From: Dehalococcoidia bacterium
GTDB taxonomy: Bacteria > Chloroflexota > Dehalococcoidia > Lucifugimonadales > UBA3495
DNA: 64,000 nucleotides
Assembly (NCBI GenBank): GCA_965203435.1
Contig: CBDBCU010000005.1
Span: 202,977-266,976, forward strand
Direction: 5' to 3'
Part shown: in pieces, positions 25,668 to 26,796 of the stretch
Numbering within the stretch: the stretch's first letter is position 1
Layout: each line of letters starts with the position of its first letter
Made by a program: the position numbers and the translations under genes
Notes under the pieces: model-generated
Told to the model about the DNA's origin: nothing
Seen by the model: only the letters and a program-made list of their open reading frames with translations
The model's database searches: none

Positions 25668-26609
25668 CTACTTCCGGGTGCGGCGGATGACTTTCTTGCA
25701 GGTGGCGCTCCAGGTACGGCTTTGCCGCATTTTGTACCGCCAAATATTGTTGGCAGCATTAAGGTCATCCGAGAGCAGCAAGCCCAAGCCATTCCCGGTA
25801 AATTCCGCATTACCGGGCGGGCCGTTGTTTCCGTTGTGGCCGGCGTGGAAAGCCACATTGGTGACCTGGGGATAGCCCTGGGCCCGGCAAGCGCTTTTGG
25901 CGGCGGCGGTCGCCAGCTCCGTCCATTCGGCGCTGCTGGGCGATTGGTAACCGGCGGGTATTCTTTCCTCGTTGGCTTGGCCCACGTTGTTGACGCGTTC
26001 ACGCTCTTGCGTTCGCCAGTCTACCTGATGCGAAAGGGCGATAAGGTTGCGCCGGGCGTTGGTAATCGCGCCGCCGGAGCCGCCGTGATTGGTGCTTTCT
26101 CCGGCCCAATTCCCGCAAATGATACCGCCCACCTGCCCGCAGCTGGCGACGGCGTTAATCGGGAATCGGACGGGATCGTTGGCGATGTCCAGCCGCTTGA
26201 CCCGCTTGGTGCGCCGCCGTTCCTCCCTCGGAAACTCAAAGATGCGGTCAATGCTGACCCCGGTAACGCCGGATTCCCCGTCGGTAAGATAACCCTCCTG
26301 GGCGGCGATAAAGCCGCGGAACTGGCCGCGTTCGCCGAAATAGACGGTGTCATCCCGCTCGTTGCGGTCTTTGCCGGCTTCCCAGGTTTCGGCCTTGGTA
26401 AAGGTATCGGATTGGTCGACGCCGCAGTAGAGGGTCTTGCCCCGGTTTTCGGCCAGGGATTCCAGGATGGCCGTAGTGCGGTCGTCATGGGCAAAGGCTT
26501 GCCAGTCGGCGCAGTCCCAGGGGATGGAACGGGCTTGGAGGGTGGTCAGGCCGTAACCGGCCCCCAGCAGCAGGGAAAGGACGATACCCAACATAAAGAA
26601 CTTGGGCAT
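25668..26609 (-). CDS. Secreted or membrane-anchored protein, modular family copy 1 (conserved N-terminal module, polybasic linker, divergent Cys-containing C-terminal module)
   Basis: Start at MPKFFML (26609) behind GGGAGG. It has an N-terminal hydrophobic signal/anchor. The N-terminal module (..IPWDCADWQAF...LYCGVDQSDTFTKAETWEAG...IDRIFEFPRE) is shared with 29758..30687 and 43371..44312. The linker is REERRRTKRVKR. Confidence 0.8.
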   Translation of the reverse strand: MPKFFMLGIVLSLLLGAGYGLTTLQARSIPWDCADWQAFAHDDRTTAILESLAENRGKTLYCGVDQSDTFTKAETWEAGKDRNERDDTVYFGERGQFRGFIAAQEGYLTDGESGVTGVSIDRIFEFPREERRRTKRVKRLDIANDPVRFPINAVASCGQVGGIICGNWAGESTNHGGSGGAITNARRNLIALSHQVDWRTQERERVNNVGQANEERIPAGYQSPSSAEWTELATAAAKSACRAQGYPQVTNVAFHAGHNGNNGPPGNAEFTGNGLGLLLSDDLNAANNIWRYKMRQSRTWSATCKKVIRRTRK

Positions 26610-26639
26610 AAAGGAACCTCCCAAGAGGCCCCAGAACAA

Positions 26640-26679
26640 GGCCAGGGCCGAAATTGCCTTGGCAATTTCGGCCCTGGCC
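26640..26679 (-). promoter_or_regulatory. Perfect 19-bp stem hairpin in the 5' leader of family copy 1
   Basis: GGCCAGGGCCGAAATTGCC-AA-GGCAATTTCGGCCCTGGCC lies between the predicted -10 and the SD, and is followed by TTGTTCTGG. Confidence 0.6.
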
Positions 26680-26690
26680 TATGTGCATTT

Positions 26691-26719
26691 ATACTATCAC
26701 AAGGTTTTGGGGATGTAAA
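26691..26719 (-). promoter_or_regulatory. Putative promoter of family copy 1
   Basis: Minus strand: TTTACA, 17 nt, TAGTAT. The position is homologous to the promoters of copies 2 and 3. Confidence 0.5.
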
Positions 26720-26796
26720 GGGGGGTGGGGGGGCAATTTCGAAAATTTTTTTGGGTGATTTTCGATGCCTCTCTACCGTCAACCCCGCCGCCCCTA

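What the first reader, a model, noticed from the sequence alone, without database searches (positions are those of the whole stretch)
25668..26770. Three-member secreted-protein family: near-identical promoter, leader and N-terminal module joined to divergent C-terminal modules
Genes 25668..26609(-), 29758..30687(-) and 43371..44312(+) share an almost identical upstream region, SD, signal/anchor peptide and a Cys-pair N-terminal domain of about 100 aa. The shared region ends ..IDRIFEFPRE, at about codon 129. A polybasic linker follows (REERRRTKRVKR or PKKRRRKKPLPRP). After it the sequences diverge sharply. Copies 1 and 2 keep only islands of similarity and a common basic tail (RQSRTW.ATCKK.IRRTRK). 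I could not align copy 3 to either. A conserved delivery module plus a variable payload is the layout of polymorphic toxin and effector families. No small immunity-like ORF follows any copy, and each has its own terminator. I recognise no domain in any part. This is my best candidate for an undescribed system in the window.
Basis: partly seen in the sequence, partly recalled or inferred. Interest (0 to 1): 0.75.

Follow-up and report, generated by a model that had tools for sequence, protein, structure and literature searches.

The report
Expanded secreted protein family, variable heads
The three genes are real members of an undescribed, lineage-restricted family of exported proteins, present in dozens of copies per genome in an uncultured Dehalococcoidia group. 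They join an almost invariant base to a fast-evolving, recombining head, a layout typical of variable surface or effector repertoires, but their function is unknown.

Summary
Three paralogs (25668-26609 -, 29758-30687 -, 43371-44312 +) share a promoter, a structured leader, a signal peptide and a ~100-aa two-Cys N-domain (90-93% identical) up to FEFPRE. After that they diverge.

They belong to a large unnamed family of about 750 protein clusters. Two sister Dehalococcoidia genomes carry 37 and 32 loci each. No match was found in Pfam, NCBIfam, PHROGs, PADLOC or PDB sequences. Foldseek found no analogue in PDB or BFVD.

AlphaFold models the C-domain confidently. The "polybasic linker" is an invariant beta-strand, and the basic tail is an invariant beta-hairpin. 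Together they bracket a hypervariable four-Cys head.

The N-domain is acidic (charge about -9) with dN/dS of about 0.03-0.1. The head has dN/dS of about 0.7-1. N- and C-parts have decoupled histories, which points to recombination at the junction.

There are no immunity genes, secretion-system neighbours or recognisable toxin domains, so a classical polymorphic toxin is not supported.

Best reading: a parallel repertoire of Sec-exported proteins with a constant base and a variable head, either surface-retained binders or effectors. The closest known logic is MAFB-N and Amoebophilus APD1/2.

In the sister genomes, many copies carry the -35 hexamer in the loop of a perfect palindrome, in either orientation. 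This may be an on/off switch.

The parts
26691..26719 (-). c1 promoter-like site: TTTACA, 17 nt, TG-extended TAGTAT
   Evidence: conserved position in paralogs
26640..26679 (-). c1 leader palindrome (19 bp + AA + 19 bp), variant 1
   Evidence: 8 of 18 pairs change on both sides among 7 paralog leaders and stay paired
26613..26632 (-). c1 8-bp hairpin that pairs the Shine-Dalgarno GGGAGG
   Evidence: invariant in 7 leaders
25668..26609 (-). c1 coding sequence, 313 aa. Signal peptide aa 1-26 (26532-26609). Acidic N-domain aa 27-129 (26223-26531). Invariant basic strand aa 130-139 (26193-26222). Variable head aa 140-293 (25731-26192). Invariant basic tail aa 294-313 (25671-25730).
25591..25629 (-). 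c1 terminator-like hairpin with T-run, in a 3'UTR conserved among paralogs
30770..30798 (-). c2 promoter-like site: TTGCAA, 17 nt, TG-extended TAGAAT
30720..30757 (-). c2 leader palindrome (18 bp + GA + 18 bp), variant 2; also scored as terminator-like
30691..30710 (-). c2 hairpin that pairs the Shine-Dalgarno sequence
29758..30687 (-). c2 coding sequence, 309 aa. Signal peptide aa 1-27 (30607-30687). N-domain aa 28-130 (30298-30606). Basic strand aa 131-140 (30268-30297). Variable head aa 141-289 (29821-30267). Basic tail aa 290-309 (29761-29820).
   Evidence: AlphaFold model: residues 130-309 have 10-residue-block pLDDT of 74-96, mostly about 90. Entropy profile.
29680..29718 (-). c2 intrinsic-terminator-like hairpin (14 bp) with TTTTTT
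43260..43288 (+). c3 promoter-like site: TTGCAA, 17 nt, TG-extended TAGACT (below the scanner's threshold)
43301..43338 (+). c3 leader palindrome, identical to that of c2
43348..43367 (+). c3 hairpin that pairs the Shine-Dalgarno sequence
43371..44312 (+). c3 coding sequence, 313 aa. Signal peptide aa 1-27 (43371-43451). N-domain aa 28-130 (43452-43760). Polybasic junction aa 131-143 (43761-43799). Class-B head and tail aa 144-313 (43800-44309), ending ..YYTAYCRR.
44355..44400 (+). c3 terminator-like GC-rich hairpin with TTTTT

Best explanation
The three genes are autonomous cassettes of a lineage-restricted, massively expanded family of Sec-exported, disulfide-stapled proteins.

Each cassette has its own promoter, structured leader, coding sequence and terminator. 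Each protein has two parts:
- A constant part: an acidic ~100-aa two-Cys N-domain, plus a strongly cationic first strand and a C-terminal beta-hairpin.
- A hypervariable head of about 110-220 aa inserted between those two basic strands.

Shown:
- The architecture.
- The copy number.
- Strong purifying selection on the constant part.
- Near-neutral to diversifying evolution of the head.
- Exchange of heads between constant parts by recombination at the junction.
- The absence of any partner gene.

Inferred: the constant part sorts, anchors or clusters the protein at the cell surface. It may do this by acid-base docking of the N-domain on the basic ribbon, or by binding an invariant envelope component. 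The heads then form a repertoire of binding or effector modules deployed in parallel against a changing external target: host, phage or neighbours.

Expression of individual copies is probably controlled at the promoter and leader.
For: Family size and restriction:
- 750 and 764 clusters at E <= 1e-3, all unnamed and without Pfam annotation.
- The N-domain has only 57 clusters (50% identity level) among 1.84 billion representatives. 56 are family members with at least 60% identity. The one exception (40% identity) is a repeat protein that matches only a 24-aa motif.
- 69 loci lie in just two GTDB species genomes (37 and 32), scattered round the chromosome.
- At least 11 clusters map to one 4.4-Mb contig of the window lineage.

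Export: an N-terminal hydrophobic leader ending ..QA|RS. Sister-lineage copies have a canonical ..AQA|AP site.

Constant versus variable parts:
- Column entropy is 0.20 bits in the N-domain and 1.77 bits in the C-domain. Residues 131-140 and 289-309 are nearly invariant.
- AlphaFold gives 10-residue-block pLDDT of 74-96 (mostly about 90) for residues 130-309, with 134-144 and 288-307 as strands.

Charge: the N-domain averages -9.2. The first 14 residues of the C-domain average +5.4 and the last 22 average +6.9, while the head averages -2.5. Four Cys occur in 214 of 273 C-domains.

Selection:
- c2 and its closest relative L001 (C-domain 74% identical): head omega 0.92, N-domain omega 0.11.
- 16 of 18 sister-genome pairs (C-domain identity >= 60%), pooled: pN/pS is 0.079/0.116 for the head and 0.028/0.326 for the N-domain.

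Recombination: N-domain dS exceeds head dS in the same pairs. Only 3 of 12 head partners are also nearest in N-domain DNA.

Context: members are singletons between housekeeping genes (rpsB/tsf, RNase HII, ybeY/dnaX), with no shared neighbour.

Precedent: lineage-specific constant N-domains after a signal peptide joined to polymorphic C-termini, proposed to act as surface anchors (PMC3482391).
Against: - No direct evidence of surface location, binding or any activity.
- The invariant N-domain is not modelled (pLDDT about 33-55 in two runs). Docking on the basic ribbon is therefore conjecture.
- The fold has no analogue in PDB or BFVD, so nothing supports 'binding' over 'enzyme' or 'toxin'.
- dN/dS near 1 is also what relaxed constraint gives. 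Site-wise tests were not run.
- The habitat is inferred only from relatives' record titles.
- The c3-class head cannot be shown to be homologous to the others once the basic termini are removed.
Confidence: 0.5

Rival explanations
1. Classical polymorphic toxin or effector family. The N-module delivers the protein, the C-modules are interchangeable toxic payloads, and the polybasic linker is a processing site.
For: - Constant N-part with polymorphic C-part, and recombination at the junction.
- Strongly basic C-domain, compatible with nucleic-acid or membrane targets.
- PMC3482391 describes Sec-dependent toxins with lineage-specific N-domains.
- Host-directed effectors would not need immunity genes.
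Against: - No downstream immunity ORF at any of 7 window-lineage loci examined.
- No toxin, peptidase or trafficking domain in Pfam, NCBIfam or PADLOC.
- No promoterless cassettes were seen.
- Nearly all heads are one divergent homologous set with no conserved candidate catalytic residues across classes.
- The 'linker' is a predicted structural strand.
Confidence: 0.15
2. Pro-protein logic, like cathelicidins or defensins. An anionic, conserved pro-domain neutralises a cationic C-domain. Cleavage at the dibasic junction (..RRRTKR|VKR..) by a bacterial or host convertase-type protease then releases the active C-domain.
For: - Charge complementarity of -9 against about +10 is conserved across 273 members.
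- Invariant multibasic motifs sit exactly at the junction.
- The N-domain gives no confident independent fold.
Against: - The junction residues are predicted as a beta-strand of the C-domain with 10-residue-block pLDDT of 78-91.
- The positive charge sits in the invariant strands, not in the variable head, which is slightly acidic.
- No protease gene is linked.
Confidence: 0.12
3. Variable cell-coat (S-layer-like) protein family used for surface variation. Only some copies are transcribed at any time.
For: - Exported, basic, abundant paralogs with a constant part and a variable part.
- Strong promoter, 5' hairpin and strong terminator, as in highly expressed coat genes.
- In sister genomes the -35 hexamer lies in a palindrome loop. 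It points the wrong way in 31 loci and the right way, in the same kind of palindrome, in 15.
Against: - The proteins are small (about 28 kDa mature).
- No SLH or other wall-binding domain.
- No lattice-forming evidence.
- All three window genes have an ordinary upstream promoter rather than a switchable one.
Confidence: 0.13
4. A decaying or selfish repeat-associated gene family without a specific function. High copy number would come from duplication with flanking REP-like repeats, and head divergence from relaxed constraint.
For: - Head omega is about 0.7-1.
- About 8 of 69 sister loci are truncated or frameshifted.
- REP-like repeats flank every copy.
Against: - The N-domain is under very strong purifying selection (omega 0.03-0.1) in all copies.
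- Reading frames, four Cys and the invariant termini are kept across hundreds of members and two lineages.
- REP-like repeats also flank unrelated genes.
Confidence: 0.05

Closest known systems
Sec-dependent proteins with lineage-specific constant N-domains: Neisseria MAFB-N toxins, Microscilla-N, and Amoebophilus APD1/APD2 effectors (Zhang et al. 2012, PMC3482391, section read)
   Same: - Signal peptide followed directly by a globular N-domain that is strongly conserved among paralogs and absent outside the lineage.
- Extremely polymorphic C-termini.
- Many copies per genome.
- For APD1/2, copies are deployed in parallel without immunity genes.
   Different: - No MafA-like partner gene and no lipobox.
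- The C-parts are not recognisable toxin or effector domains. They are versions of one or two scaffolds bracketed by invariant basic strands.
- No standalone cassettes or immunity genes.
Mycobacterial PE/PPE families (from general knowledge, not tested here)
   Same: A conserved ~100-aa N-terminal module joined to highly variable C-terminal regions. The families are expanded to a sizeable fraction of the genome and restricted to one lineage.
   Different: PE/PPE proteins lack Sec leaders, are exported by ESX systems and are often paired in operons. There is no sequence or predicted-fold relation.
Campylobacter fetus Sap and Lactobacillus S-layer protein families (from general knowledge)
   Same: A constant anchoring part with a variable exposed part. 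Conserved 5' regions serve as recombination substrates. Lactobacillus coat proteins are small and basic.
   Different: Those systems use one active promoter and large DNA inversions, or silent cassettes. Here every copy has its own promoter. No lattice or wall-binding domain was found.
Cathelicidin-type pro-proteins (from general knowledge)
   Same: A conserved, disulfide-bonded, anionic N-terminal domain followed by a highly variable cationic C-terminal part.
   Different: This is a eukaryotic family and the resemblance is an analogy only. Here the cationic residues lie in invariant structural strands, and the variable part is a folded ~150-aa domain.

Membership tests
Polymorphic toxin systems (PMC3482391) | C-terminal domain belongs to a recognisable toxin family (nuclease, deaminase, peptidase, ADP-ribosyltransferase, pore-former) | tested here: not met
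   No Pfam, NCBIfam, PADLOC or PHROGs hit at E <= 1. No PDB sequence or fold match.
Polymorphic toxin systems (PMC3482391) | Immunity gene immediately downstream of the toxin gene | tested here: not met
   c1 is followed by repeats. c2 is followed by a convergent HigA-like gene. c3 is followed by a convergent PaREP1 gene. Four further loci have unrelated neighbours.
Polymorphic toxin systems (PMC3482391) | C-terminal diversity generated by recombination at a constant/variable boundary | tested here: met
   The identity break lies at codons ~130-143. N- and C-parts have discordant histories.
Polymorphic toxin systems (PMC3482391) | N-terminal trafficking domain tied to a secretion system, or processing peptidase or standalone cassettes nearby | tested here: not met
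   Only a Sec-type leader is present. No T5, T6, T7, PVC, HINT or PrsW components are in the window or the fetched loci.
MAFB-N / APD1-APD2-type constant-N effectors | Signal peptide, then a lineage-restricted conserved N-domain, then polymorphic C-termini in many paralogs | tested here: met
   This shows the same organising principle, not sequence membership.
MAFB-N / APD1-APD2-type constant-N effectors | Sequence homology to MAFB-N (DUF1020) or to APD domains, plus a lipobox or a MafA partner | tested here: not met
   No Pfam hit. No Cys at the leader cleavage region. No conserved upstream gene.
Bacterial lipoproteins | Lipobox L-x-x-C at the end of the signal peptide | tested here: not met
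   The first Cys is at residue 33/34, inside the ..IPWDC.. motif and after the predicted cleavage site.
Diversity-generating retroelement targets | Template repeat and reverse transcriptase nearby; adenine-specific variation in a C-type-lectin-like C-terminus | tested here: not met
   No second copy of any C-domain DNA in the window. Variation includes indels throughout the head. No reverse transcriptase among the annotated neighbours.
Known cis-regulatory RNA families (Rfam) | The leader matches a curated covariance model | tested here: not met
   No Rfam family reaches its gathering score anywhere in the window.
S-layer / wall-anchored coat proteins | SLH, CWB2 or another wall-binding module; lattice formation | tested here: inconclusive
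   No such Pfam domain. Lattice formation and anchoring cannot be tested with these tools.

The most novel reading that the evidence does not exclude
The family is a surface or effector variation system whose members are switched on and off individually by a new kind of micro-switch.

In the sister genomes, the -35 hexamer TTGACA sits in the 5-8-nt loop of a perfect 15-27-bp palindrome. Its orientation is flipped among paralogs, and between the closest counterparts in different genomes (15 forward against 31 reverse). The flip is probably produced by replication template-switching between the arms.

The window lineage would be a derived state. There the palindrome has moved into the transcribed leader, downstream of a fixed promoter.
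Probability: 0.2. Interest if true: 0.85.

Novelty: new variant of a known kind. Interest (0 to 1): 0.62.

Why it matters
About 1% of the genes of an uncultured Dehalococcoidia lineage, whose relatives include SAR202 and apparently sponge-derived MAGs, encode one unannotated protein family. The family has no detectable homologue or structural analogue.

Its design pairs an invariant acidic domain and a cationic beta-ribbon with a recombining head that shows dN/dS near 1. This is the signature of molecules at a conflict or recognition interface. Such families are essentially unknown in Chloroflexota.

The family offers:
- a new fold;
- a tractable case of constant/variable domain shuffling;
- through the sister genomes, a candidate promoter switch based on hairpin-loop inversion, which could be tested directly on existing long-read metagenomes.

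Tried and rejected
Searches that found nothing:
- Pfam, NCBIfam, PHROGs and PADLOC scans.
- PDB sequence search with a single sequence and with a 122-sequence profile.
- Foldseek of both models against PDB, and of the c2 model against BFVD. Best E was about 0.4-0.9.
- Rfam on the whole window.
- A single-sequence pattern scan of GTDB genomes and a profile scan of JGI metagenome contigs found no family member. The window's own species seems absent from both collections.

Homology of the c3 head:
- hhalign of class-A against class-B C-domains gave probability 3.7%, E 0.011. Convincing similarity appeared only in the last strand.
- jackhmmer from the c3 C-domain reaches 354 of 365 C-domains. This depends on the basic termini. 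With the termini trimmed it stays at 19. I therefore do not claim homology of the c3 head.

The N-domain:
- A match to a 1952-aa SdrD-B/Cna-B-like repeat protein covers only a 24-aa G-x-L-x-D-G-E-x-G-V-x-G-V motif. I treat it as a weak lead.
- A more diverse alignment did not rescue the N-domain model.

Ideas considered and dropped:
- Type IV pilin: no G|F-x-x-x-E leader.
- RiPP precursor: the parts are far too large, a Sec leader is present and no maturase is nearby.
- DGR target.
- Lipoprotein.
- A functional link to the four adjacent PMT_2 glycosyltransferases: other family loci have no such neighbour.

One literature search timed out.
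Full report
**1. The observation**

The three ORFs exist as described.
- c1: 25668-26609 (-), 313 aa.
- c2: 29758-30687 (-), 309 aa.
- c3: 43371-44312 (+), 313 aa.

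Each starts at an ATG 8 nt after GGGAGG. The first 130 residues are 90-93% identical pairwise, and the window holds no further copy. Nucleotide identity between c2 and c3 is 80-100% from about -135 to about +400, then falls to background. c1 and c2 are also alike over the last ~40 codons and ~75 nt of 3'UTR. The c1 and c2 C-domains are homologous (40% identity, E 4e-31). c3 gives no BLAST similarity to either. Similarity further upstream, beyond -225, comes from generic REP-like repeats.

**2. Organism and family**

The window (62% G+C) encodes Obg, SecDF, CtaA/CtaB and other housekeeping genes. Its Obg is 88-89% identical to two Dehalococcoidia MAGs. It is 77-80% identical to MAGs titled SAR202 or Chloroflexota, several with isolate or bin names that look sponge-derived. 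That reading of the record titles is my inference.

A search of 5.8 billion proteins with c2 returned 750 clusters, all unnamed and without Pfam domains. Many share the same large contigs. A sister-lineage member returned 764 clusters.

The N-domain alone, scored against 1.84 billion representatives, matched only 57 clusters. All but one are family members with at least 60% identity, so there are no remote relatives.

A profile scan of 185,579 species genomes found the family in only two genomes, the two closest Obg relatives. They carry 37 and 32 loci spread round the chromosome, of which 34 and 27 look intact. At least 11 clusters map to one 4.4-Mb contig of the window lineage, and a fourth member lies on the window's own contig.

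Neighbours of four further window-lineage copies are unrelated housekeeping, toxin-antitoxin or transposase genes.

**3. Anatomy of the protein**

A hydrophobic leader ends ..QA|RS. Sister copies have the canonical ..AQA|AP and no lipobox.

The N-domain (~103 aa) has two invariant Cys. Its entropy is 0.20 bits per column, against 1.77 for the C-domain. It is acidic, with mean charge -9.2 and pI 4.3.

So are the last ~20 residues (RARQSRTWTATCKKxIRRTRK). Together they carry about +12 charge, while the region between them is slightly acidic. Four Cys occur in 214 of 273 C-domains.

AlphaFold2 with a 122-sequence alignment models residues 130-309 of c2 with 10-residue-block pLDDT of 74-96, mostly about 90. 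Residues 134-144 form a strand and 288-307 form a hairpin. Two long helices and further strands lie between them. The N-domain is not modelled (pLDDT about 33).

A second run on c3, with a broader alignment, gave a confident C-terminal half (residues 200-313). It has the same order: a helix carrying a Cys, then strands ending in the last Cys. The N-domain again had low confidence.

Neither model has an analogue in PDB. The c2 model also has none in BFVD.

**4. Are the C-parts unrelated payloads?**

Mostly not. After trimming the basic termini, 326 of 365 heads fall into one transitive BLAST class. This class includes c1, c2 and all sister-genome copies. Members such as P0203 carry three tandem copies of a ~65-aa core, W..LA..A...C...GY....W.A.C.

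The c3 class is different. It has only four clusters in the big database, three of which are 83-85% identical to c3 and the fourth 50% identical. It shares with the rest only the basic first strand and the ..Y-T-A-x-C-[KR][KR] end. hhalign gives probability 3.7%. jackhmmer links it to the rest only when the termini are kept.

So the family has a constant frame and at least two head classes, one of which is hypervariable.

**5. Evolution**

All values are Nei-Gojobori estimates.
- Paralogs in the window lineage: N-domain dN 0.004-0.04 and dS 0.25-0.48. Head dN 0.2-0.9.
- c2 and its closest relative L001: omega is 0.92 in the head and 0.11 in the N-domain.
- The sister genomes gave 18 reciprocal-best pairs defined by the head. 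The 16 with C-domain identity >= 60% were pooled. pN/pS is 0.079/0.116 in the head (omega about 0.7) and 0.028/0.326 in the N-domain (omega about 0.09).

In those pairs the N-domain has more synonymous divergence than the head. The head partner is the nearest N-domain in only 3 of 12 cases. Heads and constant parts therefore have different histories, which means recombination at the junction.

N-domains are 90-99% identical within a lineage but 67-78% identical between lineages. Heads are as similar across lineages as within them.

Estimates for distant paralogs depend on uncertain alignments. I rely on the close pairs.

**6. Regulation**

In the window lineage every copy has the following elements in order.
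1. A -35/-10 pair with a TG-extended -10.
2. A perfect 18-19-bp palindrome.
3. An 8-bp hairpin that pairs the Shine-Dalgarno sequence.
4. After the stop codon, a conserved 3'UTR with a terminator.

The palindrome occurs in three sequence variants. Eight of its 18 pairs change on both sides and stay paired. The scanner also scores it as terminator-like. It could be an attenuator, a 5' stabiliser or a DNA-level structure. I cannot tell which.

**7. Interpretation**

The defining features of polymorphic toxin systems are a recognisable toxin domain, an adjacent immunity gene, and a trafficking or processing module (PMC3482391). All three were tested and not met. Only the recombination logic is shared.

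The same paper describes a looser principle that fits well. Sec-dependent proteins carry a lineage-specific constant N-domain directly after the signal peptide, followed by polymorphic C-termini. The examples are MAFB-N, Microscilla-N and Amoebophilus APD1/APD2. The constant domain is proposed to act as a surface anchor or clustering module, and the variable parts are deployed in parallel.

I therefore favour a repertoire of exported proteins with a constant base and a variable head, whose heads meet a changing external partner.

The rivals each explain some features but have specific evidence against them:
- a true toxin or effector family;
- a cathelicidin-like pro-protein cleaved at the basic junction;
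- an S-layer-like variable coat;
- a decaying family.

Function remains inferred.

**8. Side finding in related loci**

In the two sister genomes, 46 of 66 family promoters contain a perfect 15-27-bp palindrome. Its 2-8-nt loop carries TTGACA. The hexamer points forward in 15 loci, exactly 17-18 nt from a TAnnnT hexamer. It points in reverse (TGTCAA) in 31.

The same stems occur with both loop orientations. Closest counterparts differ by an exact loop inversion in L093/L094, L098/L102 and L141+L155/L144.

Arm homogenisation and spacer inversion by replication template switching are documented (PMC8604942, PMC5941160, PMC8794818). That such an event toggles a -35 element in a multigene family would be new. 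Read-level data are needed to confirm it.

Noticed in passing
L082-L150 (about 90-175 nt upstream of each family gene); L154-L156: 46 of 66 sister-genome family promoters have a perfect 15-27-bp palindrome whose 2-8-nt loop carries the -35 consensus TTGACA. It points forward in 15 loci (17-18 nt before TAnnnT) and in reverse in 31. Identical stems occur with both orientations. Three sets of closest counterparts differ by exact loop inversion. This is a possible hairpin-loop-inversion promoter switch.
   Followed up: partly
window 13229-25205 (-): Four tandem paralogous genes of 906-1047 aa. Each has a PMT_2 (dolichyl-phosphate-mannose protein mannosyltransferase-like) membrane domain and a long C-terminal extension with internal repeats. 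They lie directly next to c1, but no such genes neighbour other family loci.
   Followed up: partly
window, 24 sites, e.g. 3055-3143, 12815-13071, 19380-19469, 25262-25351, 26802-27006, 30918-31006, 43108-43196, 47232-47320, 55695-55784: A REP-like palindromic repeat, TTCCCGC[GT]TA[AC]GCGGGAAT. It occurs mostly in pairs about 70 nt apart, and the central GTAA/TTAC orientation is opposite in the two members of a pair. It is intergenic, not specific to the family, and generates spurious ORFs (..IPAYAGMTV.., ..SFPRKRES..).
   Followed up: partly
window, 18 sites, e.g. 22319, 25535, 30836, 44430, 44470, 48398-48553, 49653, 49798: A second dispersed repeat, CTCATCCTGAACNNGTTGAAGGATG (CATCCT/AGGATG inverted repeat). 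It often lies just outside the family genes' terminators or promoters and also occurs in tandem clusters.
   Followed up: no
window 28954-29643 (+): A HigB-like toxin gene (PF05015, E 3e-14) followed by an HTH_3 antitoxin-like gene, convergent with c2. Another family locus (L152) is followed by HicA/HicB. I take this to be coincidental clustering in variable intergenic regions.
   Followed up: partly
window 44607-45134 (-) and 45290-45847 (-): Two tandem paralogs matching the archaeal PaREP1/PaREP8 family (E about 1e-8 to 1e-9), in a bacterial Dehalococcoidia genome immediately downstream of c3.
   Followed up: no
P0203 (417 aa) and P0168 (407 aa): Family members with unusual architectures. 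One has the N-domain followed by three tandem ~65-aa head cores. The other has a head followed by a long Pro/Thr/Glu-rich tail. Both suggest the head core is a reusable module.
   Followed up: no
window 4601-7738 (-): A 1045-aa ORF with a weak N6_Mtase match, probably a fused restriction-modification enzyme. A similar Type ISP-like gene lies near another family locus (L151).
   Followed up: no
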